Positions 48,132 to 63,999 of a stretch of DNA of 64,000 bases are shown one piece after another; the first letter of the stretch is position 1; each line of letters opens with the position of its first letter. The notes under the pieces were generated by a model. The model was not told the DNA's origin. It worked only from the letters and a program-made list of their open reading frames with translations, and searched no databases. This DNA comes from Deltaproteobacteria bacterium (GTDB taxonomy: Bacteria > Desulfobacterota > WTBG01 > JAGOGO01). The stretch covers positions 1,017 through 65,016 of the forward strand of contig JAGOGO010000002.1 of assembly GCA_017996625.1 (NCBI GenBank), given 5' to 3'. The position numbers and the translations under genes are program-made.

Positions 48132-49049
48132 TCAATGTTGGCCCTCCAATAACTCGTACGCGAGAAGCACATTTTCCAGTGCCTTTTTCTGTGTCCTTGT
48201 GAGCTTTACATCCTTGTAATATTGATTTCCGTTGAGTCTTACCGTAGTTTCTTTGGAGCATGCGATAGATCTGATCATGTCGAGATCGGAAGAATCCAAT
48301 TCGATCATGCACCACTCCCACACCTCCGTGTAATTGTCTCGTTCGAAGCCTGCATACTTCTTGAATTTGTTGCCATCGACTTTTATGTCAAAAGATTCAA
48401 TAAAGAGCCACTCATCTCCATAGTACTGCACAACAAGATATAGATTGGTGAGTCGCATATCATCAGTTCTACCGAAACAAACATAAAAGCCGTTTTGAGA
48501 TCTGCTGGTTGGTGAAGTTTGGTCACAGTATAAAGTCATCTCCTCCATATCGTCTCTTTTCTTGCGCAGCTTTTTCAAAGTGTCCGTTACCCTCTTTTCC
48601 TTTTCTCTCTTGTAATAGTTAAACTTCTCTTCATAAAGCTTCTCTTCTGGATTCACTTCCATGAGCTGGGAATAGAGCATTATATTACGATCAAGATCGG
48701 TCGAAGGGACGGTCTTCACTTCCTCAAACAATCTTTTCTCTTTTTCTTCCTTCGTTTCTGCTTGCTTCGCTTCGCTTTGAGTTATAGTCTGCTTCTCTTT
48801 TGTCTGTTTGTCTGAACATTCCCGAATGAGATTTGAAAAAAACCCTATACCTGCAATAACAACGAATACGGTAAGGCAACCATGACTCGACTTCGTCGAT
48901 TTCTTCTTTTCCTTCGCATAAGGTGGCTCCTTATAGGATAGTTCCTTGCCCTGCAACATTGCACCGCAATGTTTACACTTGATAGCCTCTTGCTTTATTT
49001 CTTCTGCACAATAAGGACACTTTTTTGTTGCAGACATCCTCGCCTCCAA
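48132..49049 (-). CDS. zinc-ribbon plus single-TM protein with unknown C-terminal domain (low-GC, likely horizontally acquired)
   Basis: CPYCAEEI...CKHCGAML, then TM helix LTVFVVIAGIGFF, a K/E-rich linker and a 170 aa C-terminal domain. Noticeably A+T-rich relative to its flanks. Confidence 0.4.
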   Translation of the reverse strand: MEARMSATKKCPYCAEEIKQEAIKCKHCGAMLQGKELSYKEPPYAKEKKKSTKSSHGCLTVFVVIAGIGFFSNLIRECSDKQTKEKQTITQSEAKQAETKEEKEKRLFEEVKTVPSTDLDRNIMLYSQLMEVNPEEKLYEEKFNYYKREKEKRVTDTLKKLRKKRDDMEEMTLYCDQTSPTSRSQNGFYVCFGRTDDMRLTNLYLVVQYYGDEWLFIESFDIKVDGNKFKKYAGFERDNYTEVWEWCMIELDSSDLDMIRSIACSKETTVRLNGNQYYKDVKLTRTQKKALENVLLAYELLEGQH

Positions 49050-49576: not shown

Positions 49577-52500
49577 TTATAGGTAATCCTGCCACGTCAC
49601 AATCGACGATTGTGGATCAAGAAAGAAATCAGTATCCTTGAATAGGAAGTAAGGCCAATCCTTTGAAATACTTGACTCAGCTAGTCTATATCCTGCTTGG
49701 TCGTACCAGTCAATGTGATGTTTCTCCTTTACGGGGAGAATGCGCAGTTTCGGTCCCGTGTACGTTGAGAAATCATCGACAAGTGTAACGGGAATTTTCC
49801 GTTGAGTCGGATAGCGTTCGTCTTCTATCGTAGCTCTAGCATCCTTTCTTTCGAATATCCATTTATCAACTAATCTGGGTTCCAGAACAGCATCGCTGAT
49901 TTCGCCGACGTTGTTCCAATACTCCTTGGCTATAACTGCAGCATCTGGGCGCGTGTAGGCTTCTTTCCTTGTCAGGAGATGTGTAGCAATAGGATCAAGC
50001 ATACCCCAGCTTATCATATCCTTATACCATAACACCGACCACGGCAATTCGCATCGCCGCCAGCGTTCCAGAAAATCTCCATCGCCGCCATCATGCTCAA
50101 GAATAGACCCAATGGCTGATCCAAGAGCCCAATTCAATCCATAGATAAAATACTTAGATGCAAAGTCATACCAACGAGAAACACTCTTGCCTGATGGAAT
50201 GCGATCGGATCTATAAGGTGCCATCCACCAGGTCAACACATCTTGCCAAGCCACAGTGGACTTCCCGCTTGTTAGATCACGAACTCCAAAGGCTTCAATC
50301 TGGCTAATCGCCTCAACTAAGGAGGTGATATTGTTGATCCGCTCGGAATCGTTCCAAGTGACGAAGTCCACTGCCTTCGTCATGATGGTCTTGATATTAG
50401 AGAGCTTGGAGATCAGCACCTTTCCATCTCTCGGCGCCAAACCTGTATGATATAAAGCGCGGCGATATTGTTTTTCAGGATAAATGAACTCTGTTATTGC
50501 TTTTCCTCGCTGCAGAAATATCTTTTCTGCAATTGAGTCACTGAAACCCATTTTACAATGAAATGCTAGTGTGTTATGCCACAGCGACCGAAGTGAATCC
50601 TCCATATTTGCTTCGGGATTCAAGCCTTCAAGTTCGACAATACTAGTGAGCAATTGCTGATCAAGCGTATCTAAAGATCTTAAGAGATTCCCTTCCTCGC
50701 CTTGCGCCGAAGAAAATGCAGTCCGTTCAAGCCAAGCGATAAACTGATTGATATCCTTGCTCCCGGATAGGCGCGACCAGAGATTCTCAATCCGAATTGT
50801 CAAAGCATACAACGGAGAGTTTAGTCTTTTGACGTTTTTGACTTGCCGCTCGGTCATGGCGCGGATGATCTTCTCATATGCCTCTTGAGAAATCTTCTGA
50901 GCTTCTCCAAGGGCATTTGTGGAAAGTAGTACAAGTGTTTTACCCTCTGTAGAAACTCCTGGCCTTCCAGCCCGCCCCGCTACGTTAATTATCTCCCTTG
51001 AGGTCACAGGTTGTCTTGAATTCACAGGCTGTCGAAAGCGTAAGAGTGATGGTATCAGAATTGTCTCAAAAGGAAGATTCACGCCTTCAGACAGAGTTGA
51101 GGTTGCAATTACGATATTGATTACATGCTCTTCAATAAGTTCGATGAGAAGGCGAGACATCACCGGCGGCATCTTGCCATGATGAAGGACTATACCCTTC
51201 TGAAGGAGACGGTGTTCACGGGAAATCGGACCGAAGTAATCAGCGCATGAAGCCAAACAGCGAGATAAAAGGGCTTGATCCCTGCTGCGCTTTGGCTGCC
51301 CGAAGAAATCTGGATATTGGATGTCTGCCCAATCATCTGTGAGTAACCTTATGAATGTTTCAGCATATTGTTCAGGGTGCTCGGTTACTGATATAAGAAC
51401 CGAGTGTCTTTTCCCGTCCAAAGGTCGAGCGAAGTGCATGGCCGCCCATAATAGATGTGCCCGCATGCGCTTCTCAACACTATCATCTTTCTTAAAAGCC
51501 CTTATTACCGGCGGATGCGGGGGAAAAGGGTTAGCAACGTAGGGGGCACTTTCCTCCTCATTAACTAATAGACGTTGTCCATCGAGCACATCATATCGAA
51601 TAGTGGTCACTCCATTGTCACTACACCACAGTTGGCCAAAAAGTTGACGAGTACTTCTATAATCTGGGGCAATAGCGCGAGATTCATTCTTTCCTGTCAT
51701 CCAAGCTGACAGAACATCCCGGATATCTGTTGCTACAGCAGACAACGCTACGAATGTGGTATGTGGAGAACATAAGGTTTTCAGCCGAGAGACAAGGCCC
51801 TCCAACCGTAGAGAGCGGCTTTGAGCTGTGGCCAGAGCTTCGTAATCCCCTGTGAATGCAACTGAATGGGCCTCATCAATAATAACGCATGATAGCTTTT
51901 TCAGCATTGTTTGACCTAACAAGCGAAGAAGAGCATCTGCTTTTTCATGCGTCGAAATTAATACGATAGGTTGTTCTGCAATATTGGTTAGGTCCGATGG
52001 GCCAAAATCATTGCCACCATAAAGTGACGTAACTACGACGCTCGTTGCTCTGATGTTGCGCAAAGAGCGTGCAATGTTCGATTCAACCTCACTCGAAAGT
52101 GCTTTTGAGGGAGTGAGATAGAGAATCAATGGGGCGTCATTCTTGATGTGTCGATCTTCATGTCCAAACAAATGACGTAGTATCACCAATTCCGCGACAC
52201 GCGTCTTACCTGAGCCAGTAGGTGTGCAAAGAGCAAAAGAACCTTCTGATGCAATGCCAGCAATACCAGCTTGCTGAGATGGCCAAGTTAGTATCTTTCT
52301 TTCCAGAAATGCGACTCTCGCATAACGGTTTAATGCCTGACGACCGTCATCGGATACCTTTTCTGTGAGAGGTAAGAGCGATGTCCAAAGAGCCTCGTTC
52401 TTAAACTCTCGTGCGATTGCAGCGAAAATAACAGAAAGCAACCAAGAGAACCTATCACTATCGTAACGTAATGCGCTGGCGACCTTCTCAAGAGTCTTTA

Positions 52501-53152
52501 TAGCCGAGTCGATCCGCACCTCATCTCCCCACCTCATCCATGCTGTAAGTACTCCGATCGCGCGTAATAGCTGATTGAGAATCACAATACCTGTCTGATG
52601 TTTTGTTGAATCGCCTTTACCACCATGTCGCCAAAAGTCTAGCAAAAGTCGTTGTGCTCGAAAAAAATCCGCACGAAGAAGAGCTGTAAGAATCTGTGAT
52701 GTCTTATCCGGTAGAGTATGTTCAGACAATATTCCTAAAGCTCTCGCGGGGTACCCAGCTAATTGGTAAATGGATGCAGCAAGGAGTACCACTGGAATTG
52801 GGAAATCGACAGGTGAACTTGTCGCCGCCCACTCAAATATCTCTGCAGCGCGGCGCAGGTACCTACGGCTATCGGACATATCTGGAGCAGCCATTCCAGC
52901 AATCAAAAGCTTTTCACCCTCGGTTAAACGAACAATGAGTTCATCATTTGTCCATGAAGGCAGTCCCTTCGCACCAGCGCGGAGCCTTGTATGTTGGGCA
53001 TAGAGGCGTGCAATACCCCGACTGAGCGATGGTCCGGCCACGCGCTCTGCAAAGTCGTGAATCAAGTCCAAGCTGCCTTCAGCCATATATTTCATTTGGA
53101 GCCATCCATCCTCTCGTAGAGTGAAGAGATGAGGATATGAACGCCAGGGCAA
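49577..53152 (-). CDS. large SF2 DExH helicase, HamB-like (Hachiman-type helicase partner of DUF1837)
   Basis: Motif I CTPTGSGKT, II VIIDEAHS, VI VAGRAGRPG. 1191 aa with long N- and C-terminal extensions. The start overlaps the upstream DUF1837-like gene by 61 bp. The helicase call is secure; the Hachiman assignment is inferred from gene pairing. Confidence 0.5.
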   Translation of the reverse strand: MPWRSYPHLFTLREDGWLQMKYMAEGSLDLIHDFAERVAGPSLSRGIARLYAQHTRLRAGAKGLPSWTNDELIVRLTEGEKLLIAGMAAPDMSDSRRYLRRAAEIFEWAATSSPVDFPIPVVLLAASIYQLAGYPARALGILSEHTLPDKTSQILTALLRADFFRAQRLLLDFWRHGGKGDSTKHQTGIVILNQLLRAIGVLTAWMRWGDEVRIDSAIKTLEKVASALRYDSDRFSWLLSVIFAAIAREFKNEALWTSLLPLTEKVSDDGRQALNRYARVAFLERKILTWPSQQAGIAGIASEGSFALCTPTGSGKTRVAELVILRHLFGHEDRHIKNDAPLILYLTPSKALSSEVESNIARSLRNIRATSVVVTSLYGGNDFGPSDLTNIAEQPIVLISTHEKADALLRLLGQTMLKKLSCVIIDEAHSVAFTGDYEALATAQSRSLRLEGLVSRLKTLCSPHTTFVALSAVATDIRDVLSAWMTGKNESRAIAPDYRSTRQLFGQLWCSDNGVTTIRYDVLDGQRLLVNEEESAPYVANPFPPHPPVIRAFKKDDSVEKRMRAHLLWAAMHFARPLDGKRHSVLISVTEHPEQYAETFIRLLTDDWADIQYPDFFGQPKRSRDQALLSRCLASCADYFGPISREHRLLQKGIVLHHGKMPPVMSRLLIELIEEHVINIVIATSTLSEGVNLPFETILIPSLLRFRQPVNSRQPVTSREIINVAGRAGRPGVSTEGKTLVLLSTNALGEAQKISQEAYEKIIRAMTERQVKNVKRLNSPLYALTIRIENLWSRLSGSKDINQFIAWLERTAFSSAQGEEGNLLRSLDTLDQQLLTSIVELEGLNPEANMEDSLRSLWHNTLAFHCKMGFSDSIAEKIFLQRGKAITEFIYPEKQYRRALYHTGLAPRDGKVLISKLSNIKTIMTKAVDFVTWNDSERINNITSLVEAISQIEAFGVRDLTSGKSTVAWQDVLTWWMAPYRSDRIPSGKSVSRWYDFASKYFIYGLNWALGSAIGSILEHDGGDGDFLERWRRCELPWSVLWYKDMISWGMLDPIATHLLTRKEAYTRPDAAVIAKEYWNNVGEISDAVLEPRLVDKWIFERKDARATIEDERYPTQRKIPVTLVDDFSTYTGPKLRILPVKEKHHIDWYDQAGYRLAESSISKDWPYFLFKDTDFFLDPQSSIVTWQDYL

Positions 53153-54012
53153 TGGAATTCGACTGATGTTAGTTCACGCATCCCAGTATATCGTTCGTGG
53201 GGAGAGTCTGTTGGAATCCATGTCTTCCTAAGCTTGGGGCAATCACCACAAACATACACACTCAAGTCGCAACGAACGGAAAGCTTCCTCGATGCATATT
53301 GCCACCAATATTTCTGCAATGCGGAGATCCAAGTTCGGCTGTACTTGTCATCACGATAATCCTTCAACGCATCGATCAGTCGGAGCAAGTCAATTGGTCG
53401 AGTCACGGCCTGACTGAGTTTCTCATGATTATCGGATATCAGTTGAGACGAATGATCTCTGGTACACTTCGCTTCGCATGCCAGCCAAGCTATGATATCC
53501 CCATCCTTATTTAGCGCAAAAGCTAGGCCGTCATCGCCTGTCCGCCCTATTACTTGCCTCGACCACTCATCAGTTTGTTTCATGTATTCGAGCTGCTGGA
53601 AAGCAATTACATGAGTGCGAAAAAGGTAGACCGGAACTTTCCATTCGTATTCACCATCTCCTGCATAGTATTCGGCGACAATTCCGGCGATAATCTCGCC
53701 AAAGAAAGCTTGAAGAGCGATATTGCCCAGCTTGTGTGGATATCCAAAGGCCGGGTCGATTTCAGTATCATAATGGAGAGGATGTAGTGAGTTTTCAAGT
53801 GGTGCCCGCAAAGATTGGCGAGCACCATCATGGGCGTGGTCAATATATGTGAAAAGTTCATCTAGTTCGGGTTGAGTAACGGTCCGTTTAGCGCGAATAA
53901 GCAGATGGCAATAGCGAGGGGATTTTTTGTTATGAGTCTTCTCTACCGTTAGCCAAGAATTTAGCAGTCTCAGTCGCGGATGTTCAGCAGAAACTATTGG
54001 GTCGGATTGCAT
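53092..54012 (-). CDS. HamA-like (DUF1837-like) PD-(D/E)xK nuclease-fold protein
   Basis: LNKDGDIIAWLACEAKCT gives a D...EAK nuclease motif. 306 aa, translationally coupled to the helicase. Confidence 0.4.
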   Translation of the reverse strand: MQSDPIVSAEHPRLRLLNSWLTVEKTHNKKSPRYCHLLIRAKRTVTQPELDELFTYIDHAHDGARQSLRAPLENSLHPLHYDTEIDPAFGYPHKLGNIALQAFFGEIIAGIVAEYYAGDGEYEWKVPVYLFRTHVIAFQQLEYMKQTDEWSRQVIGRTGDDGLAFALNKDGDIIAWLACEAKCTRDHSSQLISDNHEKLSQAVTRPIDLLRLIDALKDYRDDKYSRTWISALQKYWWQYASRKLSVRCDLSVYVCGDCPKLRKTWIPTDSPHERYTGMRELTSVEFHCPGVHILISSLYERMDGSK

Positions 54013-54490: not shown

Positions 54491-54832
54491 CTATGGTTCC
54501 TTCAGAGACAAGACTTCTATCTCACCTGATAGGGTATCAAAAAGGAAATGATCAACCTTGTCGAGTTCTCCCGGTATTAACATCGGCGCCCTTTTCAACA
54601 TTGCCACCCACGAGGAGTCTGCTACTTTGAAGGTGTTTCCAAGTCTCTTGAGTCTAAAGTATTTTTTAAATCGAAACGCTACACAATGCTTAAACAAAAC
54701 CAGCCACTTTTTGTTTTTACTGATGTCCTCAAGGCATATAGAAAGATGATTGTCGGATTTTAAAATAATCTCGTGGCTGGCAAGATTATCGATACGAGAC
54801 AAAGGCGTCTTCCACACTTCTATTGAATCCAT
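54491..54832 (-). CDS. hypothetical 113 aa protein downstream of retron RT
   Basis: ORF only, 175 bp from the RT stop. Confidence 0.25.
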   Translation of the reverse strand: MDSIEVWKTPLSRIDNLASHEIILKSDNHLSICLEDISKNKKWLVLFKHCVAFRFKKYFRLKRLGNTFKVADSSWVAMLKRAPMLIPGELDKVDHFLFDTLSGEIEVLSLKEP

Positions 54833-55007: not shown

Positions 55008-55934
55008 CTAGATGTTGCTCAATACTCGTTTGCCGTATTTTTGTTCCATCCGTTCGACAAAATTCGGTTCGATAGAGCGGGCAAATGCAAGCATGCCGCG
55101 GAGTGAACTTTTTTCCTGGGGAGTGAGATGTCCCGTTATAAGATGATGTATCTGCGCTCTAATACGGCGCTTCTTTTCTCGGCCAAGTGACACACGGCCT
55201 GCATTAGAGAGAACTAATCCGGTTACCATCCGACGATGAGCTTTTGACCCGAAAATTGTTTTCTTCTGATTAATTTGCAGCTTAGGAAATGGCAGTTGTT
55301 GTATCACTTGAAGAACCCTATTGAGAACTTCTGATCTAGCTGCCTTCTCCATCATGGAAAAAGTCATATCATCGGCATACCTGGTATATGTGATACTACG
55401 TTGGCAACAATAGCTTTCAATTTCACTATCAAACCTATGCATGATGGCGTTGGACAAATAAGGAGAGGATGGAGCACCGACTGAAAGCTGAAGGTTGTGA
55501 ATTCGTTTAGGATACCAAAAAAGAATCCTTACAAGCAACTGTAGATCGAGCTCATCGAGGTCCAGGTTGTTGAGTTCTCTTATGTACTGAATAAAATCAT
55601 CTCCCTTGATTGAAGGAAAGAAATCCACGAAATCAAGCTTCAGCAAATAAGGCTTGGCGACATGAAGTTCAGAGTTGTTTAATATATTCTTTGCCTTTAT
55701 ATAGGCAGTTGCGGACGGATGAATTGGCAATCGTGGAAATAAATTCTCAATAACCCAGTACTGGAGCCTTTTAACCTCCTTAGCTGGTTGGGCTATGGTG
55801 CGCATACCAGTTCCAGATCGCTTTGGTACCTCATAGACCTTATAGCGATAAGGTGCACTTCTAATTAAGTATTCCAAACGTTCCTTTGGCAGAAGTAAAT
55901 CTTTAGACAATTTGGCTAAGAGTGAGACTACCAT
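55008..55934 (-). CDS. retron-type reverse transcriptase
   Basis: All retron RT signatures are present: PKRSGTGMRTIAQPAKEVKRLQYWV, LKLDFVDFFPSI, SVGAPSSPYLSNAIM, YTRYADDMTFS, VTGLVL. 308 aa. Confidence 0.85.
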   Translation of the reverse strand: MVVSLLAKLSKDLLLPKERLEYLIRSAPYRYKVYEVPKRSGTGMRTIAQPAKEVKRLQYWVIENLFPRLPIHPSATAYIKAKNILNNSELHVAKPYLLKLDFVDFFPSIKGDDFIQYIRELNNLDLDELDLQLLVRILFWYPKRIHNLQLSVGAPSSPYLSNAIMHRFDSEIESYCCQRSITYTRYADDMTFSMMEKAARSEVLNRVLQVIQQLPFPKLQINQKKTIFGSKAHRRMVTGLVLSNAGRVSLGREKKRRIRAQIHHLITGHLTPQEKSSLRGMLAFARSIEPNFVERMEQKYGKRVLSNI

Positions 55935-55947
55935 AAAAAAGTCCGAT

Positions 55948-56916
55948 CTAACTCGTTTGCCTAAAATGTGAAATCAATGCCTTGTATTTTTGCTTATTGT
56001 GGTGGATGTAATGATCATTAAACATTATTGTCCAACGATCCCGATCCATGCCACGAACGTTTGCCGTCTGTCTATAGGCAATCGCGAGCCGAGGTTCGTG
56101 CGCGCAAGTGCGGTAATAGACATTGTGGCCGTATTGCTTTTTTTCAATCAGCTTCAAGGATTTCAGTAAACTCAAATATTTGCTTAGTTGATATCGTTCA
56201 TACCGTATATCCAGCCATTCGAGAAATTTGTTTAATTCATCTAAAGATGCGAGCTGCACAGTCTCCAGCAGATCGAGCATTAGTAGCATGACATGCCCTA
56301 ACTTATCTCTGCTGAACGATTCGGACTTTGGCAATTCCAAAAGAATTTTCATTACTGTCTCTGCGAGGTCTTCCACATCAAAGAAATCATCCTGCGTGAC
56401 CGACTCGTCATTATTATCCTTGTTCCTCCAAGTATATACTGTAACTGGGCTATCTTTGCCGTTCTTTTCTGCAATCTTCATAATATGCAGGATGGGTCCT
56501 CGCCAAATAAAAGATTTCTTTTCCCAATGATCTTTGTGCATGACTACCAGAAGTCTTTCCCGAATAGTATCCAGTACTGCAAACGAACCGAGCTCAGCAA
56601 TTGAGCCAGGGCTCTCCGAGAAAATTATTGTCAAAGCAGATAGCTCAGCCAAGTCTCTTTCAAAGTCAAGAAGGTCGGTGTATTCTGAGTGGTAAAAATA
56701 GTCGAAAACATCCTCTGCTAATACAATGTCCTGGCGATACATGTATTTGCTCTGACAGATATATTTGCAAAAGGCATCGCGACAAGAGTGCGGGGCTTTG
56801 TGGGAGTCTGTGATTTCACCACCACACAGGAAAACGAAGGAAGGCAACTTGACGACACGGCTCTTCGTCAAGTCAATTGATGATATCCATTCTCTGTATA
56901 TTGGATCTATTTCCAA
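55948..56916 (-). CDS. retron accessory/effector protein with N-terminal nucleoside 2-deoxyribosyltransferase-like (NDT) fold
   Basis: VFLCGGEI... and ESPGSIAELGSFAVL resemble the NDT family D.G[TS].FE.G.A catalytic-Glu motif. 322 aa with a TTG start. It lies 14 bp upstream of the RT, the Sen2-like arrangement msr/msd - effector - RT. Confidence 0.45.
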   Translation of the reverse strand: MEIDPIYREWISSIDLTKSRVVKLPSFVFLCGGEITDSHKAPHSCRDAFCKYICQSKYMYRQDIVLAEDVFDYFYHSEYTDLLDFERDLAELSALTIIFSESPGSIAELGSFAVLDTIRERLLVVMHKDHWEKKSFIWRGPILHIMKIAEKNGKDSPVTVYTWRNKDNNDESVTQDDFFDVEDLAETVMKILLELPKSESFSRDKLGHVMLLMLDLLETVQLASLDELNKFLEWLDIRYERYQLSKYLSLLKSLKLIEKKQYGHNVYYRTCAHEPRLAIAYRQTANVRGMDRDRWTIMFNDHYIHHNKQKYKALISHFRQTS

Positions 56917-56920
56917 TAGA

Positions 56921-57085
56921 ATGCTCTTTACTTAGAGGCAGGCATGGTGGCCTTCCTCGGCTTACCGACGGTGAGCCGAGGAAGGCCACCATGCCGGTAA
57001 GTGTTATCAATCCGTAAAAGTCCAGCGGAACGCCGGACAAAGCCTAAAAACTGCTTATCCTCTAAAGAGCAAGTTCTATCCTTGC
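56921..57085 (-). ncRNA. candidate retron msr-msd non-coding RNA
   Basis: Read on the minus strand. A TTGACA -35-like hexamer sits at about 57100. It is followed by a1 GCUCUUUAGAGG (57070-57059). The msr hairpin is GUCCGGCG-UUC-CGCUGGAC. A perfect 22 bp stem GGCAUGGUGGCCUUCCUCGGCU / AGCCGAGGAAGGCCACCAUGCC with an 11 nt loop (56943-56997) is the proposed msd. An imperfect a2 CCUCUAA(GUA)AAGAGC (56938-56923) abuts the effector start. Confidence 0.4.
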
Positions 57086-57197
57086 AAGATTTCAGATGCT
57101 TGTCAATGGCAAACTTAATATTCAGTGTTTGATTTATTATATTCCCGCAACAAATATCCATGAGGTAGGATGTTTCTTGCTAAGCATAAAACCCTTC

Positions 57198-59972
57198 TTA
57201 TTTAACCGGTACCCTCCCGCTCAAACCCAAATCTCCGAGTATGAGCTTGAGGTCTGACTCGAAGCTCTGTGCCTGGTTCTTCTCAACCGTTACGGAAAAA
57301 CAGATACTGATCTTCAAGTCCGATCCGCTGCGCAGCTTCGGGAGAATCTTTGTCCCCAGTCGATTCCAGACTTCAGGCGGAATCTCACCGGAAATCTGGA
57401 ATGTGCGGGTTCCTGCACCAGGTATAACCTCCGGCTCGGTTCCTTCTCCTGACTGAGTGCCGATCACATCTATAACTTCTGGTCGAGGTTCCGGACGCTG
57501 GGTGGGCTCAGGTTCATGAGCCGGCCCTGAGCTTGACTTTAACGCCTTGGCCTTCGATTTCAGAAGAAGAAATACTCCCTGATCGAAAATGATTTCTTCT
57601 GACGGGACTGCCTCCTGAAACCAGACCCGATCATAGGAGCCGTCTGTCTTCTGACCTGAGGCGAATCCAAAGTCCCCCTTATCCACCCAAGCAGCTATTC
57701 TGCTGCGCAGGACAGTGTCTGGATCAAGGAGGCGCGTCAGTGATCCATTAAGGAAGCTTTGCCGGAGACTGGTCAGAGGCCAGGCACCGGAGTCTCTCAA
57801 GGCAGGGGGCCAATTGCGTTCAACATAGCTGGCTCCTACTGATTCATTCAGCAAAGCCTGCGACTTGAGCGCAGTGATAACCCGGCCGCACAGAGTCTCT
57901 CCACTGCTGGAGTGCCCAGCTCCGAGGTCAATAGTCTTTAATCCGTTCGGCTCCTTGCTGTCAGCAATGACTACAAAGCGATAGCCTCCCCATACTTCGT
58001 CGTGGGCTGCTTCTTCGCCTTCAGTCGCCTTTGTCCGCACCTCCAATCTATCTTCAGGACTGAATTCTCCTCCCAGTGTCTTCTCTCTGATTTCCTTATC
58101 TACTCGTTTCCAGGCCAACCATAGTTCAATCTTGTCACGCAAATCGCGGCCGGGCTTTTTCACACACCACACAAGCGAGCCCGGATAGAGCCTGGGTGAC
58201 TTTCCCCTTTGCTTGGTCCATTCGGCAATTTGATCAACAAGGCTCCCCTTACCCGTCCATTCGCATGCAGGGTCAAGCACCACAAGCGTCAGCTTGGGTG
58301 TATCTTGAATCTCGGTGCCGTCGGATGGAAACTGGACAAGGGGAATGGTTGCTCCACGCTCAAACTCTTTTTGAACAACAGCGCGCATGGCCGGTTTGAC
58401 ATCGTTCTCATCATCCAGGGACGCGCGTCGGTCGTTCACAACCTTTTTCATCGTCGGCTGGTAGCCGATTCTGAATCCGTCGGAACCGATGCGTCGAATG
58501 AAATATGATTTGTCTTCGAGAGCGAAAGCGGCATTGTCCACCGACGTGGTATCGATCTCCGGCTCACCAAGGGCAAAGCGCAATTCGGGCAGGTGCGCCA
58601 CTTTATCCACCTGGCCACCGGAAGACTCAAAGAGAATCGCAGTGGCTACCCGTCGATGAATATCGCGCAATGCCGCTTTTGAGTCAGCATCGAGGGCGCG
58701 GGCATGAGAATGATCGCCGGCAATATCAGCATCAATAGCGGCCTCAAGGCGTGATTCCCCAAGTTGGCCGAGAACAACACTGCGGAATTCCGCCACCTCC
58801 AAAGGAGCCGATCCAAGAGTGATAAGCGCCTCGTTGCGCGCGTCATAGAAATTAGTGCGGCTAGCCCAGGAAATCCACTGGGCAAGCATGGCAAGGGTTC
58901 CACGCGTCTGCTGGTACTGCGGCAATGCCTGCCATTTTCTCTGGAAAACCGACAGGGTCGCGGGGTGAAATGGATAACACGTCTCAAATCGCTGCTGCAA
59001 ATATTCTTTGGCTTTTGCTTCCGTGGCTGCGGTGTCAACGGCCATCCATTCAGGCGGAAGCTGGGCACGGCGTTGGAAGCACCATTCGGCGTAAGTCTTC
59101 GCCACAGTCTTGCGAACTCGGTCTTTCCCTATGTCCTCAAACAACCGCCGGCGAATCACTTCGCTTATTTCAGTTTCGTCGTTTGCGATGAGATCCTTGG
59201 CCACACGTCGAACCACCTTTGTAATCTTATTCTGCCATGCCATGTCCCAGTCGGTCATTTCCACCTGGCTTCGCGGCAAACTTATGACTGCTGCTCCGTG
59301 AGTAGTACCCGTAGTTGCAACCGTCAAGTTCTGAATAAAGGAATGGAACTGATCAGCCATATCTCTATGCCGATTCAAGAAGTTCAGTACTTCATCGAAG
59401 AGAATGAGCACCGGGGCTTCAGCAGCCTTAAAAATCCGATCAAGCGCTTCGGTACCTGGGGGCGTATTCCTTGCCGATGTTCCGAGCTCCCTGACTCCCT
59501 TATCACCCGCAAGCTGCCGAGCAATATCAATCCACGGTGTCTCGCGACCTTCTTGCGGATCCCAAGCATTGCCGACAAATGCAGCGACTTTCGCATGCGG
59601 CACTGCGCTTATTGTTGCCTCATATACAAGATCAGCGACACCAGTATACTCGGCTGCCTTTTCACCGCTACTCATCAAATGGTAAAGAGCTGCAAGTGTG
59701 TGCGTCTTGCCGCCACCGAACTGAGTAATAAGGGTCATGACGGGTGCCGTATTCGCTGTCTCGCCCGAAAGCCGACGCATCACCATGCCGGTGTGCTCTC
59801 TGAGTGCCCGAGTGAAGCAGGTACGAGCAAAGAATTGCTTCGGATCGCGATAATCTTCCGGAGCAGTTTTGGCAATCACCTGTTCCAGATGAATGGCAAA
59901 CTCGTCCGGGTTGAACGAACGCCCTTGTCTGACTTCTTTACGAGGGGTAGTGCTTTTGTACCACGGGTCCAT
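57198..59972 (-). CDS. DUF499-family P-loop ATPase (COG1483-like), 924 aa
   Basis: Walker A TQFGGGKTHTLAALYHL, Walker B PVLILFDEVLN. The large size and the pairing with a DUF1156 methyltransferase match the DUF499 context. The DUF499 assignment itself is from memory of the family. Confidence 0.55.
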   Translation of the reverse strand: MDPWYKSTTPRKEVRQGRSFNPDEFAIHLEQVIAKTAPEDYRDPKQFFARTCFTRALREHTGMVMRRLSGETANTAPVMTLITQFGGGKTHTLAALYHLMSSGEKAAEYTGVADLVYEATISAVPHAKVAAFVGNAWDPQEGRETPWIDIARQLAGDKGVRELGTSARNTPPGTEALDRIFKAAEAPVLILFDEVLNFLNRHRDMADQFHSFIQNLTVATTGTTHGAAVISLPRSQVEMTDWDMAWQNKITKVVRRVAKDLIANDETEISEVIRRRLFEDIGKDRVRKTVAKTYAEWCFQRRAQLPPEWMAVDTAATEAKAKEYLQQRFETCYPFHPATLSVFQRKWQALPQYQQTRGTLAMLAQWISWASRTNFYDARNEALITLGSAPLEVAEFRSVVLGQLGESRLEAAIDADIAGDHSHARALDADSKAALRDIHRRVATAILFESSGGQVDKVAHLPELRFALGEPEIDTTSVDNAAFALEDKSYFIRRIGSDGFRIGYQPTMKKVVNDRRASLDDENDVKPAMRAVVQKEFERGATIPLVQFPSDGTEIQDTPKLTLVVLDPACEWTGKGSLVDQIAEWTKQRGKSPRLYPGSLVWCVKKPGRDLRDKIELWLAWKRVDKEIREKTLGGEFSPEDRLEVRTKATEGEEAAHDEVWGGYRFVVIADSKEPNGLKTIDLGAGHSSSGETLCGRVITALKSQALLNESVGASYVERNWPPALRDSGAWPLTSLRQSFLNGSLTRLLDPDTVLRSRIAAWVDKGDFGFASGQKTDGSYDRVWFQEAVPSEEIIFDQGVFLLLKSKAKALKSSSGPAHEPEPTQRPEPRPEVIDVIGTQSGEGTEPEVIPGAGTRTFQISGEIPPEVWNRLGTKILPKLRSGSDLKISICFSVTVEKNQAQSFESDLKLILGDLGLSGRVPVK

Positions 59973-60082
59973 ACGCTTATCTCCTTAAAGCGGACGATAC
60001 CAGGAGCGCTTTCTCATCGCCAAAACATTCGGTCCCAAATCACAAAAATCACAAAAAGGGTGTTCTCTTGTGATTTTTGTGA

Positions 60083-61252
60083 CTATTTTAATTCTCGCCG
60101 CTTGATATACTCTGCGAATAAAGGATCGGCGATGCGATACTGACCGCGTCCGATTCGCTCAACTAATCCTTTTTCCGTAAGCCGCTTAAGCACTTCCGCA
60201 GCGTTCTTTACCTTTGCGCTGCGCTTCTCAAGGGTTCGCGGGCTCAGAACGGCATCATTTGTAGCCAGCACTTTGAGCGCTGTCATTTCTTGAACACTGG
60301 CACGCCCCACCATCCCTTCAAATTGCGCATCAGCCAACGCCAGAAGTGTATGGTAAAGTGCGGTTTCCCAATTTTCCATGGAAACCCTGCCTTTGACTTG
60401 CTGATCAAAAAGGGCTTCGCAGAGTGCCTGTACTTCGAAAACATGCCCACGAGTGATATCGAAAATATTTTCTTTCACACCTTTCTCAAAAACGACTCCC
60501 GATTCTCGCAGGGAATCATCGATAAGCCTGAAGGTCTCGGTCTTCGCAAAAGAGCCCAAAGGCCTGCGAGGCATAAACAATCGCCCGAGAGGATGATCCC
60601 GTACCAGATACGGTTTCCATGCTTGCTCGATTGAACTAATGACCATGAGGATTTTTGTTTGTCCAAGAATACGCTCATCAGTAAGCACATTCCTCAAGAG
60701 GGTAAGCTGCTGTCCCTCTGTCGAGAGATTGTGGACATCGTCAATCAATATGACCAATGAGCGCGCTCCATGCCTTTCGGCGTGTTCATGCAGCCGCATC
60801 AAGCCATCGCGCAGTACTAACTGCGGGTCTTGATTCGCAGAGGCATTTCGCCACTGCAACTGAAATCCAAAGCCGAGCACACTCGCACCTGCACCTTCAA
60901 CACGCTTTGCAAAAGGCTCCTTCTTCTCTGGCAGAATAGGCAAATCAGACGCCGTCATATCGAGCACATGGCGAGCGAAATCCGTGAGGCCTTCCTGAGC
61001 GGCAAATGCCCGGGTACTGAAAAGGAGAGCCCACGCTCCCTCGGTTCGAGCGACCAACTTCATCTGCCGGAGAAGAACCGTCTTTCCGATGCCCCATGTC
61101 CCCGTGATAACGTAGTGTTGAAATCTGCCATGGAAAGCGTTGCTCAACCGTTGTTTGAAGAACGCTACTTCCTCATCCCGGCCAATGAAAACTTTTGGGT
61201 CCATGCCGGATCTTGCTGTAAACGGATTGACAAGCATCTTCTCTCCTCTCAT
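60083..61252 (-). CDS. AAA ATPase of the archaeal-ATPase (PF01637-like) type with C-terminal wHTH
   Basis: Walker A VITGTWGIGKTVLLRQ, Walker B LVILIDDVHNL. The C-terminus LTEKGLVERIGRGQYRIADPLF is a wHTH. Confidence 0.55.
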   Translation of the reverse strand: MRGEKMLVNPFTARSGMDPKVFIGRDEEVAFFKQRLSNAFHGRFQHYVITGTWGIGKTVLLRQMKLVARTEGAWALLFSTRAFAAQEGLTDFARHVLDMTASDLPILPEKKEPFAKRVEGAGASVLGFGFQLQWRNASANQDPQLVLRDGLMRLHEHAERHGARSLVILIDDVHNLSTEGQQLTLLRNVLTDERILGQTKILMVISSIEQAWKPYLVRDHPLGRLFMPRRPLGSFAKTETFRLIDDSLRESGVVFEKGVKENIFDITRGHVFEVQALCEALFDQQVKGRVSMENWETALYHTLLALADAQFEGMVGRASVQEMTALKVLATNDAVLSPRTLEKRSAKVKNAAEVLKRLTEKGLVERIGRGQYRIADPLFAEYIKRRELK

Positions 61253-61258
61253 GCTACC

Positions 61259-63999
61259 TCACCTAGGCACAGCCAGCAGCATTGCATCGAGCAATCGTTT
61301 CTCCTCACTCCCCTTCGGATAGAGCGCCGAGAGGGCATTAGCCAAACGGAGAAAATCCGGGCTGCGCTCCTGCTCGGCCTTAACCAGCGCCCGTAAGGCA
61401 TTGGTCTGTCCGCCAGACTGCAGCAGCATCGCAGCATGCACGCGATCAAGCGTGGTAATATTTCGCTGGTTCTGAAAATCGGCAGCAGCCGGGTCCAAGA
61501 CAACTCCTTTCCGCTGCCCTCGAACGCGAAGCTTCGGTGCCTGCTCTTTCTCCAATTCAGGAAAGAGAACACGCTGCAGGTTTTTCATAGGCTGCTTCTC
61601 GATGATATCAGCAGAGGCTCTAGCGCCTTCTTCGCCAAAAAGTTGCTTGCTGCGGTCGGCAATGCCCAAGAGCCTGATCACGCCCTTCTCAGTCTTGATT
61701 ATGCGGTTCTCCCACTTGGGAAGATCAATCCCGAGCGGCTGCGCAAAGCGGCGGACTACATCGAAGACGAGACTATATCCTTTAGCCTTCCCTTTCGGAG
61801 TAGGTTCTTCATCATCCTCGTCAAGCTCTTCTTCCTCTTCAACATCTTGGCTTTTACCTTTGCTCTTTTCATTTTTGTCTTCAGCATTGGTGGCCTGCAA
61901 CGTCCATAGGAATAAGGCTGTTAAACGCGCATCCTCTTCCAATACACCTGCCATACCATTTCGGGCACGAGCTTCCTCAGTGCCGAGAATCTGTTCCAGT
62001 GCCGTGCGGCCCACTACCTCCCAGACCTTCTCCAGGTACTCAGCAAGCTTGACCTCGCGACCTTCGGCAGTCTCCACCTTTGAGTACCGGCTGAAGATTT
62101 CGAGAGCCGGTCCGATACAGGCGAACACCAGATCCGCCCCTCGAATCCCTTCGCCCTGCAAGCACTCCATCCAGTCCCCTACCCGATTTGGAAGTTCACG
62201 AAGCACCTCCGACCAATCGCCCACGGATGCGTCCTCTGGACGTGGACGACAGACGAGGTGGACACTGGTGGCGAGGGCAGCTGTGTCGCGTGCCAGTAGT
62301 CGAGCTCCCCTCTCTGTTGCAATGGGCCAGGAACCTGTGATTGCCCAACCGCCGCGGACGATGCCTGAAAGAAGTGCTTCCCATCCTTCGGTTGTCTTGT
62401 GCGCAAACACTACAGAGGCAATCCCATCCTCCTTCAGTACTCGCCGTCCTTCTGAGAAAGCCTGAGCCATGGCGTCTTCGTAGTACTGTCTGTCTTTGAC
62501 ACGCCCCGTGGGGTCACGATCCTTTTGAGATTGGATGACCTCGGCAGCTTTGGGAGTGAGGGGGTTGGATGCCTCATAAGGGTCTCGCAGTAGCGGGTCT
62601 CTCGCCATCATCCGTTTCAGCCACACGAAGAAGAAATCGGAGAGGTCAGAATAAGGGATTGCGTCATAGTACGGCGGATCAGTGAACCAAACTGTAGCCG
62701 AGTCATTTGGCAACGGATGATTTGTGGCGTCTGCCAGCTGCGTTTGTCCCATCTTGGGTATCCCACTTGCGATCTGCGAAACAGCTCCCACCAGTTCGTC
62801 AATTGCGTTTCCCACCCCCCCGCGAACTCAGATAGCGGATAGAACTCCGGAAAATCCCATGACATAGGCAGCGCATGTCTGCCGAACGCCCCAGCGACTG
62901 TCTGACTGCCTTTGTGCCAAAAGGCGAAAGCATTGCAATGTCGGATGGTTTTGCCAAGCACGAGAGACGGAAGTCCGCTTTTCCCCACTATTACTCCAAG
63001 CAGTGTGTGTACCAACGCCTGTCGAAGTGAAAATAGGTCTCCAAATACCCGTGCCCCATAGCGTGTGACCGCGGAAAGACCACGAGCATTTGCAGAAGGG
63101 CGCTGTGGATCAATGGGTTCATCTGGCAATGGGCATGGGCCTTTCTTGCCCGCCTTTTCCCATTGGTGAACAAGAAGATTCATCCGCTGATGTGCCTTCC
63201 ACACCGCTTGATAGTCTTGTGTTGTGGGTTGACGGTACTTTCGCTCGCGGCTATTATTGCACATCGTAACAACCGCTAGCAGTCTCGCCCCACCAATACG
63301 GTTGCCATTTGTATCAAAAATCACGTCTGGCCGGCCACCTTGCTCGGTGATTTGCTCACGAACGCGTTCTGATGAAAGGACAGCACCACAGGCAGGGCAC
63401 GTCGCCCTGCCATCCTTTATCGTTCTTTGCGCGATCTCTTGATGTTGGCCGCGTGCTGACGCCGCTATCTCGAACTCTATCTCGGGTCTTTTGCCATGCT
63501 TACGAATGACCGTGTGTCGAAGGCCACACTGCCAGCCACTGCTTTGGCAGAAGAGAAATGACCGCGCAAGCGGGATTTCCGCTCCGCAGTTGGGGGACTC
63601 GCATTTGACCGTTCTCGCCCAAAGGTAGGCTATCGGCGCGGCCCCGTCAGGGTCCTTGGGATAAAACTCAGCGAGTTCCTTCTCAGCCTGTTTCTTGATC
63701 TCACCGCCGACCCGGCGCAGTTCCTCGGCAAGCTCTGGTCCATGGCGTGGAATATCTTCCAGCAGGACTTTGAGAATGAGGCAGGCTACTGGATTGAGAT
63801 CGCTGGCAAATGCTTCACAGCCCAGTCTCAGAGCTTCCAGTGGGATCGATCCACCACCTGCAAAAGGGTCAACAACGAGCGGCGGTTCCTCACCATGCGC
63901 AGCCTTTACTAGCGTTCGTCCTGCTTCGGCATACATTGGGTTGCATGACAAATCCCAGTTTGCGAAGTCGCCTATAAACTCAAGCAATGCTTTCCTCAA
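61259..63999 (-). pseudogene. DUF1156-type Zn-ribbon DNA methyltransferase (COG1743-like) split by a -1 frameshift at a G7 homopolymer. N-part 62617..63999 (motif I, runs off window), C-part 61259..62815 (DPPY)
   Basis: N-part has VVDPFAGGGSIPLEA (FxGxG SAM motif) and CxxC pairs (CESPNCG, CPACG). C-part has WFTDPPYYD (motif IV). The two ORFs overlap by 199 bp in different frames. The frame change maps exactly to GGGGGGG at 62815-62821 (minus strand). One additional G would give the continuous product ...YPLSEFAGGVGNAIDELV.... Confidence 0.6.

What the first reader, a model, noticed from the sequence alone, without database searches (positions are those of the whole stretch)
57198..63999. Three-gene module: DUF1156 Zn-ribbon methyltransferase - PF01637-type ATPase with wHTH - DUF499 P-loop ATPase
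Co-directional genes with gaps of 6 bp and 110 bp. DUF1156 (FxGxG ... DPPY plus CxxC Zn ribbons) paired with a large DUF499 ATPase is a combination I recall from computational defence-island surveys (COG1743 with COG1483) as a predicted but, as far as I know, poorly characterised restriction-modification-like system. The intercalated 389 aa PF01637-like ATPase with wHTH is an extra component that I do not recall from the minimal two-gene pair. I cannot name the system with confidence.
Basis: partly seen in the sequence, partly recalled or inferred. Interest (0 to 1): 0.75.

Follow-up and report, generated by a model that had tools for sequence, protein, structure and literature searches.

The report
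Incomplete Hma defence locus, embedded ATPase
This is the methylase and ATPase half of an already described anti-phage system (Hma, also called a BREX-related system). Its helicase-nuclease gene is missing, its methylase is switched off by a slippery run of G's, and an extra, separable DNA-binding ATPase gene sits between the two core genes.

Summary
Three co-directional minus-strand genes lie at the stated coordinates, with gaps of 6 and 110 bp.

**Core genes.** They match PADLOC HmaC/DUF499 (E 2e-93) and HmaB/DUF1156 methylase (E 5e-41 and 6e-36). This is the known Hma system, also called a Type-1 DUF499-centred BREX-related system.

**What is missing or broken.**
- No HmaA (Snf2 helicase-nuclease) is present. 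Identical metagenome contigs show a 5'-truncated HerA-like gene, an IS200 transposase gene and a catalase gene upstream instead.
- The methylase frameshift sits in a G-tract. The window has G7, five otherwise identical contigs have G8 (intact, 1004 aa) and one has G9. This looks like phase variation, as in the G-tract of Streptomyces pglX.

**The 389-aa gene.**
- It encodes an active-site-intact Orc1/Cdc6-like AAA+ ATPase with a winged helix.
- It is a separable gene rather than a canonical Hma subunit. Homologues occur in the same hmaB-hmaC slot, including decayed remnants, but also alone.
- Every copy carries a conserved box palindrome (TCACA-N4-TCACA...TGTGA-N4-TGTGA), usually starting at the stop codon.
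- Its nearest larger relatives carry an N-terminal response-regulator receiver domain.

I read it as a DNA-binding ATP switch embedded in Hma. Overall this is a known system, with modest novelty in the embedded module and the G-tract.

The parts
57198..59972 (-). hmaC: 924-aa DUF499 AAA+ ATPase (Walker A FGGGKTH at residues 85-91). It has no N-terminal HEPN domain.
   Evidence: PADLOC HmaC 2.3e-93 over residues 1-834. Pfam DUF499 6.4e-15. NCBIfam DUF499_antiphage 5.6e-31, below its curated cut-off. 64-67% identical to the DUF499 proteins of the complete Hma loci L053 and L014.
60040..60082 (-). Conserved 43-nt palindromic box array that starts at the first base after the ATPase stop codon: TCACAAAAATCACAA-N13-TTGTGATTTTTGTGA. 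It lies 67 nt upstream of the hmaC ATG.
   Evidence: It is the only occurrence of TCACANNAATCACA in the 64-kb window (2 arms; 0.28 expected). The same array sits at stop+1 in 14 of the 17 homologous loci aligned, with a fixed 29-nt arm-to-arm offset. Predicted RNA hairpin -22.2 kcal/mol, z -5.5. No covariation beyond sequence conservation.
60083..61252 (-). Embedded gene: 389-aa AAA_16 / Orc1-Cdc6-like AAA+ ATPase with lid and C-terminal winged helix. Walker A and Walker B are intact. The alternative start is at 61237.
   Evidence: Pfam AAA_16 1.6e-13. PF01637 and BrxC_BrxD score below threshold. AF2 model pLDDT 74; Foldseek PDB top matches are 2qen, 1w5s, 2v1u, 1fnn and 2fna. Family alignment A1 has invariant G51, G54, G56, K57, T58 and D171, D172. 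No PADLOC system model matches it.
61259..62821 (-). hmaB, 3' part: residues 485-1004 of the 1004-aa DUF1156 N6-adenine methylase, including catalytic motif IV (TDPPYYD). It is out of frame with the 5' part in this window.
   Evidence: PADLOC HmaB 4.6e-41. tblastn is 100% identical to the intact L001 protein over residues 485-1004.
62815..62821 (-). G7 homopolymer (C7 on the + strand), the site of the -1 frameshift. It is the only G/C run of 7 or more in the window.
   Evidence: G7 in the window, G8 in L001-L005 (intact ORF), G9 in L056. In each case the tract is the sole indel, and almost the sole difference, over 4.3-13.9 kb.
62815..63999 (-). hmaB, 5' part: residues 92-486, with the AdoMet motif DPFAGGGS and the Zn-ribbon target-recognition insert. 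Residues 1-91, including the Pfam DUF1156 domain, lie beyond the window end. After the G-tract the frame runs 66 out-of-frame codons to a stop at 62617.
   Evidence: PADLOC HmaB 6.4e-36 and DUF1156_MTase 6.9e-20. tblastn is 100% identical to L001 residues 92-486. The 551-aa frameshift product exists as NCBI MBP7321439.1 on a 67,169-bp contig.

Best explanation
**What it is.**
- The region is the hmaB-hmaC part of an Hma system. Hma is also called a Type-1 DUF499-centred BREX-related system and is an R-M-like anti-phage system.
- In the published model, the DUF1156 N6-adenine methylase HmaB marks host DNA. The DUF499 Orc/Cdc6-like ATPase HmaC acts as the sensing and scaffolding ATPase. The Snf2 helicase with a PD-(D/E)xK (NOV_C) nickase, HmaA, restricts unmarked DNA.

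**State of this locus.**
- This lineage, named by NCBI as a Thermodesulfobacteriota or Deltaproteobacteria MAG, has an incomplete locus.
- hmaA and the first ~147 codons of a HerA-like gene that sits between hmaA and hmaB in a related locus (L053) are gone. An IS200-type transposase gene and a catalase gene lie there instead.
- hmaB carries a G8 tract that occurs as G7 (this window, OFF), G8 (ON) and G9 (OFF) in otherwise identical sequences.
- I infer that the Hma part cannot restrict by itself here, and that its methylase is phase-variable or being lost.

**The 389-aa gene.**
- It is a separable module made of an ATPase gene and its own cis element. It recurs in the hmaB-hmaC slot of one Hma clade and also survives alone.
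- I infer that it is a sequence-specific, ATP-switched DNA-binding protein. Its winged helix would recognise the TCACA/TGTGA box array that always follows its gene.
- In the embedded position that array lies just upstream of hmaC, so the protein may gate hmaC expression or nucleate on DNA there.

**Shown versus inferred.**
- Shown: family memberships, absence of hmaA within reach, tract polymorphism, fold, and linkage of gene and palindrome.
- Inferred: DNA binding, any regulatory or defence role, and true phase switching.
For: **Family identity.**. Literature for the model: PMC8565338, PMC11232893, PMC12839542.

**Missing hmaA.**
- No Snf2 hit in the 64-kb window.
- Identical contigs L001 and L002 show, upstream of hmaB, a DUF87 gene, IS200 Y1_Tnp and catalase.
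- HerA homology starts at residue 148 of the 733-aa L053 homologue, 30 nt after the tnpA stop. Other homologues are about 735 aa.
- The complete relatives L053 (HmaA-HerA-HmaB-HmaC) and L014 (HmaA-492aa-HmaB-ATPase-HmaC) both have SNF2+NOV_C helicases.

**G-tract.**
- G7, G8 and G9 alleles are seen across 7 sequences (the window plus 6 contigs). A further 1004-aa NCBI record implies an eighth with the in-frame length.
- The tract is the only indel in 4.3-13.9 kb.
- It is the longest G/C run in the window.
- Precedent: the pglX G8 tract contracts to 7 or expands in S. coelicolor Pgl.

**ATPase as a separable module.**
- Same slot in the window lineage, L014/15/28 and the decayed loci L010/11 and L055. 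A short HmaB tail is kept in L024.
- Beside a DUF499 gene in L019 and L008.
- Alone in L007, L012, L016, L017, L025, L033 and others.
- Embedded and solitary copies interleave in an NJ tree.
- Walker motifs are invariant in all 29 family members.

**Cis element.**
- Box sequence changes with protein clade: TCACA in most loci, TAACA in L007/L019/L008, TGACA in the receiver-fused relative L054.
- In L054 the box arrays flank the gene and are distinct from GC-rich terminators.
- About 25 of the top 150 relatives are about 530 aa. All 8 of these that were scanned are REC-AAA_16-wHTH fusions, which is a signal-transduction, DNA-binding architecture.
Against: - hmaA could be encoded elsewhere in the genome. 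Only 3.9 kb beyond the window end could be read.
- G-tract length differences can arise in assembly, and no reads were available.
- The tract is not conserved in the homologous methylases of L014, L053 and L008.
- No experiment links the ATPase to the palindrome. A 15-bp hairpin followed by T's directly after a stop codon is also what an intrinsic terminator looks like.
- An operator at the 3' end of its own gene is unusual.
- The ATPase has no recognisable effector domain. It is absent from PADLOC models, so a defence role is unproven.
- The recurrent hmaB-ATPase-hmaC order, the 6-21-nt spacing and the congruent divergence of the three genes also fit a genuine accessory subunit. ATPase, MTase and DUF499 are 68%, 68% and 78% identical to L010, and 51%, 59% and 67% identical to L014.
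Confidence: 0.72

Rival explanations
1. The 389-aa ATPase is an integral fourth component of a distinct Hma subtype. It would be a partner of HmaC, analogous to the BrxB/BrxF inactive STAND of BREX and Type-3 BR systems or to the active STAND NTPase of BRC systems. The solitary copies would be leftovers of decayed Hma loci.
For: - The slot and orientation are identical in lineages whose proteins are only 51% identical: the window, L014, L010 and L055.
- The decayed loci L010, L024 and L055 show how solitary copies can arise.
- 7 of about 17 dereplicated contexts touch DUF499 or HmaB sequence.
- STAND partners are described for BREX, BR-3 and BRC systems.
- There is a weak Pfam BrxC_BrxD hit (0.0017).
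Against: - Solitary copies among housekeeping genes keep all catalytic residues and their own palindrome (L007, L012, L017), so they function without Hma.
- The close Hma relative L053 lacks the ATPase, with a 17-nt hmaB-hmaC gap.
- There are no PADLOC BrxB or BrxF hits.
- Walker motifs are intact, unlike an inactive STAND.
- Receiver-domain-fused relatives point to regulators.
Confidence: 0.2
2. The ATPase is an autonomous single-gene anti-phage system that happens to be embedded in Hma, in the sense of 'guilt by embedding'. It would act directly on phage DNA rather than as a regulator.
For: - 62.7% of Hma loci contain embedded genes. Many embedded cassettes tested were active defences, and 96.7% are co-oriented with the host system.
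- Other copies lie in defence islands: L008 beside GmrSD and Hma, L016 near a PLD-Snf2 helicase with an Eco57I-type methylase, L033 beside a Type ISP-like methylase.
- The window itself is a defence island with a retron II-A and Hachiman.
Against: - There is no effector domain.
- It matches no PADLOC HEC or PDC model.
- Several copies sit among housekeeping genes.
- It has a conserved self-linked cis site and receiver-fused relatives.
Confidence: 0.25
3. The palindrome is just the intrinsic transcription terminator of the ATPase gene and has no protein-binding role.
For: - It starts at stop+1, has a 15-bp stem and is followed by 3-5 T's.
- Its predicted stability is well above shuffles (z -5.5).
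Against: - The primary sequence of the TCACA and ATCACA boxes is invariant across proteins only 44-76% identical.
- The inter-box stem positions are unpaired in 5-7 of 15 distinct sequences, and covariation does not exceed shuffles (87/500).
- Box identity shifts with protein clade.
- In L054 the array is separate from a canonical GC-rich terminator and also occurs upstream of the gene. L008 carries 2.7 tandem 118-bp repeats, each with a box set.
Confidence: 0.2
4. The methylase frameshift is a sequencing or assembly artefact, or a one-off inactivating mutation. It is not a phase-variable switch, and the gene is effectively intact or simply dead.
For: - Homopolymers are error-prone.
- The tract is not conserved in homologues.
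- Loss of hmaA would make hmaB dispensable, so decay is expected. L010 and L055 show decay of related loci.
Against: - Three different lengths (G7, G8, G9) occur in independent assemblies. The tract is the only indel over up to 13.9 kb, and other A/T runs of 7 are unaffected.
- Two contigs from what appears to be one ENA series (adjacent accessions) differ, G8 in L003 and G9 in L056.
- The G8-to-G7 contraction of pglX is an established switch in a related methylase.
Confidence: 0.3

Closest known systems
Hma system (PADLOC; HmaA helicase, HmaB methylase, HmaC ATPase), also called Type-1 DUF499-centred BREX-Related (BR) system
   Same: HmaB (DUF1156 N6-methylase with a Zn-ribbon target-recognition insert) and HmaC (DUF499 AAA+ ATPase) are present, co-oriented and in the canonical order. 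Close relatives L014 and L053 carry the full set with an SNF2+NOV_C helicase. There is no DUF3780 and no PglZ, so it is Type-1-like.
   Different: There is no HmaA, the only component with demonstrated antiviral activity. The methylase reading frame is broken in this genome. An extra ATPase gene lies between hmaB and hmaC.
Hma-embedded gene cassettes (HEC and PDC candidates; Payne et al. 2024 preprint)
   Same: A co-oriented gene is nested between hma genes, and the same gene family also occurs outside Hma.
   Different: This family matches none of the PADLOC v2.0.0 HEC or PDC models. It has no effector domain. It carries a conserved cis palindrome, and it recurs at one fixed slot in several diverged Hma loci.
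Archaeal Orc1/Cdc6 initiators and PF01637 'archaeal ATPases' (PAB2304 2qen, SSO1545 2fna)
   Same: About 390 aa, with an AAA+ base, a lid and a C-terminal winged helix (Foldseek E 1e-9, TM about 0.5-0.6). Inverted repeat boxes lie next to the gene, as origin-recognition boxes lie next to orc1/cdc6.
   Different: 13-17% identity. The hosts are bacterial. The Pfam PF01637 score is below threshold. There is no evidence for replication, and the spacer between arms is only 13 nt.
REC-AAA_16-wHTH response-regulator-like proteins (nearest longer relatives found here)
   Same: They share a homologous ATPase-wHTH module (E 1e-91 to 1e-30). The one example examined (L054) has similar box arrays with TGACA boxes.
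   Different: The window protein lacks the receiver domain. These relatives are themselves uncharacterised.
pglX G-tract phase variation in the Streptomyces coelicolor Pgl (type 2 BREX) system
   Same: A G8 tract inside a BREX-family N6-adenine methylase gene is in frame at 8 and out of frame at 7 or 9.
   Different: Switching is shown here only as differences between assemblies, not as measured rates. The tract is at a non-homologous position and is not conserved among Hma methylases.

Membership tests
Hma / Type-1 BR system | DUF499 AAA+ ATPase (HmaC) | tested here: met
   PADLOC HmaC 2.3e-93 over residues 1-834 of 924. Pfam PF04465 54.5 bits, above the 23-bit cut-off.
Hma / Type-1 BR system | DUF1156 N6-adenine methylase (HmaB), by homology | tested here: met
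   PADLOC HmaB 4.6e-41 and 6.4e-36 for the two halves. PF06634 81.8 bits on the identical intact gene in L001.
Hma / Type-1 BR system | HmaB encoded as one intact ORF | tested here: not met
   The G7 tract at 62815-62821 gives a -1 frameshift in the window. The gene is intact (G8) in L001-L005 and has a +1 shift (G9) in L056.
Hma / Type-1 BR system | Snf2 helicase with C-terminal PD-(D/E)xK/NOV_C nuclease (HmaA) in the locus | tested here: not met
   No tblastn or HMM hit in the window. On identical contigs, the 3.9 kb upstream of the window end holds a truncated HerA-like gene, IS200 tnpA and catalase. An unlinked copy cannot be excluded.
Type-2 BR system | Stand-alone DUF3780 gene in the core locus | tested here: not met
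   Pfam scans of all locus ORFs gave no DUF3780 hit. The intercalated gene is AAA_16.
Type-3 BR system / BREX | PglZ plus an inactive STAND (eroded Walker motifs) | tested here: not met
   No PglZ hit. The 389-aa protein has invariant Walker A and Walker B motifs and no BrxB or BrxF model hit.
MADS | mad1-8 gene set | tested here: not met
   Only marginal hits: mad2 2.6e-4 and mad8 9e-3.
Orc1/Cdc6-like / PF01637 ATPase (for the 389-aa protein) | AAA+ base, lid and C-terminal winged-helix fold | tested here: met
   AF2 model pLDDT 74. Foldseek matches 2qen, 1w5s, 2v1u, 1fnn and 2fna at E 1.5e-9 to 8e-9 over the full length.
Orc1/Cdc6-like / PF01637 ATPase (for the 389-aa protein) | Pfam PF01637 score above the gathering threshold | tested here: not met
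   21.6 bits against a 33.2-bit cut-off. AAA_16 (PF13191) does pass, at 51.9 against 32.6 bits.
Phase-variable methylase (phasevarion-type switch) | Simple-sequence tract in the ORF with length polymorphism among otherwise identical sequences | tested here: met
   G7, G8 and G9 are seen across 7 sequences (the window plus 6 contigs). The tract is the only indel.
Phase-variable methylase (phasevarion-type switch) | Reversible switching within a population, with a methylome change | not testable with these tools
   This needs read-level data and methylation calls.
Intrinsic terminator (for the palindrome) | Stem maintained by compensatory changes, with free primary sequence | tested here: not met
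   Covariation does not exceed shuffles (87/500). The boxes are invariant and the inter-box pairs are often broken.

The most novel reading that the evidence does not exclude
The 389-aa Orc/Cdc6-like ATPase and its TCACA box array form a previously undescribed, self-contained 'ATPase plus cognate DNA site' module.
- The module repeatedly lodges between hmaB and hmaC.
- There it would act as an ATP-dependent, sequence-anchored switch for a BREX-related system. It could control hmaC expression, or load onto DNA next to it as an active counterpart of the BrxB/iSTAND sensors.
- The host methylase would be independently toggled by a G8 tract, a second case of the pglX-type phase switch, here in the Hma branch.
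Probability: 0.35. Interest if true: 0.55.

Novelty: new member of a known kind. Interest (0 to 1): 0.38.

Why it matters
The core of the finding is a catalogued defence system, so it does not change the picture of prokaryotic immunity. Three points could still be useful.

1. It is a natural example of an Hma locus that has lost its only proven effector while keeping hmaB and hmaC. This bears on whether those two genes have a function of their own.
2. The G7/G8/G9 alleles suggest that Hma methylases can be phase-variable like pglX. That would affect how methylomes and phage sensitivity are interpreted in uncultured populations.
3. The embedded ATPase comes with an easily testable prediction, binding to a defined 43-bp site. 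If it regulates or cooperates with HmaC, it would give a handle on how DUF499 systems are controlled, which nobody has addressed experimentally.

Tried and rejected
- **Ordinary Type II or III R-M.** Rejected. The best models are HmaB and HmaC, and generic MTase_II models score far lower.
- **MADS, BREX types 1-6, Type-2 and Type-3 BR.** Rejected for lack of DUF3780, PglZ, inactive STAND or mad genes.
- **The 389-aa ATPase as a recent paralogue of the HmaC AAA+ domain.** No BLASTP similarity.
- **HerA-like gene of this lineage versus the 492-aa gene in the same slot of L014.** They are unrelated, so that slot is variable.
- **Known RNA family over the locus or the palindrome.** Rfam gave only a sub-threshold miRNA-model hairpin hit at 56940-56995.
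- **Promoter and terminator consensus scans.** At chance level.
- **Phage origin of the ATPase or palindrome.** No relative and no palindrome in IMG/VR. One weak PHROG hit of unknown function.
- **Sequence search of PDB with the family profile.** Nothing meaningful.
- **Integron attC, dif/Xer or CRP-site readings of the palindrome.** Considered by eye and dropped because the consensus and spacing do not fit.
- **Conserved partner gene next to solitary ATPase copies.** None found.
- **AFDB50 fold search.** Not available on the machine.
- **nSTAND literature search.** Gave nothing specific.


Full report
**1. Observation**

All genes in 57198-63999 lie on the minus strand.
- 57198-59972 encodes 924 aa.
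- 60083-61252 encodes 389 aa.
- The methylase is split into two overlapping ORFs, 61259-62815 and 62617-63999. The second runs off the window end.
- The gaps are 6 nt and 110 nt, as stated. Most homologues of the 389-aa protein start at the equivalent of Met-6, which would make the first gap 21 nt.

**2. Family assignment**

- The 924-aa protein matches PADLOC HmaC over its whole length (2.3e-93). It also passes Pfam DUF499.
- The two methylase pieces match PADLOC HmaB (4.6e-41 and 6.4e-36).
- The Pfam DUF1156 domain itself lies in the 91 residues beyond the window. It was confirmed on identical contigs (3.9e-23).
- NCBIfam has 'anti-phage-associated' DUF499 and DUF1156 models. Both proteins hit them, but below the equivalog cut-offs.

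**3. What the literature says**

- Hma (helicase, methylase, ATPase) was defined by PADLOC in 2021 (PMC8565338).
- HmaA is a Snf2 helicase with a NOV_C PD-(D/E)xK nickase. It alone protects E. coli against T4. In that study, phage T4 grown in an HmaB-overexpressing host infected no differently from wild-type T4 (PMC11232893).
- A 2026 NAR paper re-describes the family as DUF499-centred BREX-related systems (PMC12839542).
  - Type 1: ATPase, methylase and helicase-nuclease.
  - Type 2: adds DUF3780.
  - Type 3: adds PglZ and an inactive STAND.
- A 2024 preprint shows that 62.7% of Hma loci carry embedded genes, many of them independent defence systems.

**4. What lies beyond the window**

- Exact look-up of the 389-aa protein returned six metagenome contigs that are 99.95-100% identical to the window over 4.3-13.9 kb.
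- In L001 and L002 the methylase is one 1004-aa ORF.
- Upstream of it lie a DUF87/HerA-like gene, an IS200-type Y1 transposase gene and a catalase gene on the other strand.
- Homologues of the HerA-like protein are about 735 aa.
- In L001 the homology starts at residue 148 of the L053 homologue, 30 nt after the tnpA stop. The HerA-like gene is therefore 5'-truncated.
- No Snf2 helicase is found in the window or in the 3.9 kb beyond it.
- Two related loci are complete.
  - L053 is HmaA(SNF2+NOV_C)-HerA(733 aa)-HmaB-HmaC with overlapping stop and start codons.
  - L014 is HmaA-(unrelated 492-aa gene)-HmaB-ATPase-HmaC.
- The window lineage therefore looks like a Type-1 locus that has lost hmaA and the 5' end of an embedded HerA-like gene at an IS200 junction.
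- NCBI names for identical proteins place it in a Thermodesulfobacteriota or Deltaproteobacteria MAG.

**5. The frameshift**

- It lies in a homopolymer: G7 in the window and G8 in L001-L005.
- An exact-sequence look-up showed two things. The 551-aa frameshift product is an NCBI protein on a 67,169-bp contig. A differently split methylase exists on an ENA contig.
- That contig, L056, has G9 and is otherwise identical to L001 over 6,428 bp.
- Three tract lengths therefore occur in otherwise identical DNA, and only G8 is in frame.
- The tract is the only G/C run of 7 or more in the window. It is not conserved in other Hma methylases.
- This is the behaviour of a slipped-strand switch. The pglX methylase gene of the Streptomyces Pgl/BREX system has a G8 tract that contracts to 7 or expands to turn the system off (PMC4365076).
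- Without reads I cannot exclude assembly error. I put about 0.7 on real polymorphism.
- Loss of hmaA may have removed the need for the methylase.

**6. The 389-aa protein**

*Sequence and fold*
- It passes Pfam AAA_16 and hits PF01637, nSTAND5 and BrxC_BrxD below threshold. Its C-terminus resembles AbiEi-type winged helices.
- An AlphaFold2 model built on a 29-sequence alignment has pLDDT 74. It matches the PF01637-type archaeal ATPases PAB2304 and SSO1545 and archaeal Orc1/Cdc6 over the full length.
- Walker A and Walker B are invariant in the family.
- It is not a recent paralogue of HmaC, and no PADLOC system model covers it.

*Family size and relatives*
- The close family is small, with about 37 sequences at 50-100% identity, all from metagenomes or MAGs.
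- A profile search of 1.84 billion representatives finds 91 clusters at E ≤ 1e-30.
- About 25 of the best 150 are about 530-aa proteins. All eight of these that I scanned carry an N-terminal response-regulator receiver domain.

**7. Contexts of the ATPase family**

- Between hmaB and hmaC: the window lineage and L014/15/28 (51% identity).
- Between an HmaB C-terminal fragment and an HmaC N-terminal fragment, amid housekeeping genes: L010/11 (68% identity).
- Reduced to 65 codons fused to a deleted HmaC, in a decayed locus: L055.
- With about 15 codons of HmaB tail upstream: L024.
- Divergent from, or close to, another DUF499 gene: L019 and L008.
- With no Hma sequence nearby: L007, L012, L016, L017, L025, L026, L029, L031, L032 and L033. 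Some of these lie in defence-island-like settings beside Eco57I or Type ISP-like methylases. Others lie among housekeeping genes.

Embedded and solitary copies interleave in a neighbour-joining tree. No conserved partner gene accompanies the solitary copies. The gene is therefore separable from Hma and kept under selection without it. It is nevertheless associated with DUF499 loci far more often than chance would suggest.

**8. A conserved cis element**

- Directly after the stop codon lies TCACAAAAATCACAA-N13-TTGTGATTTTTGTGA, at window 60082-60040 on the gene strand.
- The 14-nt pattern occurs nowhere else in the window.
- It occurs at stop+1 in 14 of the 17 homologous loci aligned, with a constant 29-nt arm offset. 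L029 and L031 carry it 6-9 nt after the stop. L014 and L007 carry it 125 and 232 nt downstream.
- It folds well as RNA (z -5.5).
- The pair-count test shows no covariation beyond shuffles. The pentamer boxes are invariant. The inter-box 'stem' positions are mismatched in a third to a half of the sequences.
- The clade L007/L019/L008 uses TAACA boxes. L008 has 2.7 tandem 118-bp repeats, each with a box set.
- The receiver-fused relative L054 has TGACA box sets both upstream and downstream of its gene. Each is distinct from an adjacent GC-rich terminator.
- Boxes spaced one helical turn apart, arranged in inverted pairs and co-varying with protein clade, are what a cognate site for the winged helix would look like. 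A plain terminator is the main alternative.
- In the embedded loci the array lies 35-70 nt upstream of the hmaC start.
- Neither the protein family nor the palindrome is found in IMG/VR.

**9. Mechanism**

- Established by homology and literature: HmaB would methylate host DNA, HmaC would be the Orc-like ATPase sensor or scaffold, and HmaA would be the restricting helicase-nickase.
- Inferred here: without HmaA the locus cannot restrict, and with G7 it cannot methylate. In this genome the Hma part is therefore probably inactive or switched off.
- Also inferred: the embedded ATPase with its site is the best-preserved unit. It is most likely an ATP-switched, site-specific DNA-binding protein.
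- Unresolved: whether it controls hmaC, cooperates with HmaC like the STAND partners of BREX, or is a defence gene in its own right.

**10. Verdict**

The system is already known and is incomplete here.
- The modest novelty lies in the recurrent ATPase-plus-palindrome module and in the G7/G8/G9 tract in an Hma methylase.

Noticed in passing
window 55008-56916 (minus strand), plus 56917-57197: This is a type II-A retron: an NDT-like effector (55948-56916, PADLOC NDT_II-A 7.9e-73) and a reverse transcriptase (55008-55934, RT_II-A 7e-120), directly downstream of hmaC. The 280-nt stretch upstream of the NDT gene probably holds the msr-msd RNA. Only a sub-threshold hairpin hit was found there (56940-56995).
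   Followed up: partly
window 49577-54012 (minus strand): This is a Hachiman-like pair. The 1191-aa protein matches HamB helicase models (4.2e-68). The upstream 306-aa gene (53092-54012), in the HamA position, matches no Pfam, PADLOC or PHROG model.
   Followed up: partly
window 43864-47039 (minus strand): A 650-aa AAA+ protein (GPPGTGKT motif; weak PADLOC REase_II, PDC-S02 and IetA hits) lies next to a 408-aa ORF that it overlaps by 4 nt. This may be a McrBC-like pair and extends the defence island.
   Followed up: no
L001 1531-3627 (just beyond the window end): An IS200-type Y1 transposase gene abuts a 5'-truncated HerA-like (DUF87) gene, with a catalase gene beyond. The full-length HerA-like family (about 735 aa; 2374 hits at E ≤ 1e-10) occurs in two settings. 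It is embedded between hmaA and hmaB in a tight operon in L053, and it stands alone near AbiGi in L051.
   Followed up: partly
L010 857-2969 and L055 171-3784: These are two independently decayed Hma loci of the same clade. L010 keeps an intact ATPase gene and palindrome between short HmaB and HmaC fragments, amid housekeeping genes. L055 has deletions in all three genes, and an ATPase remnant is fused to HmaC. Hma of this clade appears to be lost repeatedly.
   Followed up: yes
L008 11277-11593: There are 2.7 tandem copies of a 118-bp unit, 97% matching, downstream of an ATPase homologue. Each unit carries a TGACA/TAACA box set, which is iteron-like.
   Followed up: partly
L014 5495-6973: A 492-aa gene occupies the hmaA-hmaB slot of a complete Hma locus. 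It has only a marginal PIN-domain hit and no PADLOC model. It is unrelated to the HerA-like gene in the same slot elsewhere.
   Followed up: no
window 48132-49049 and 54491-54832 (minus strand): A 305-aa protein with an N-terminal zinc ribbon and a predicted membrane segment, and a 113-aa ORF, both lie inside the island. Neither has any family match.
   Followed up: no
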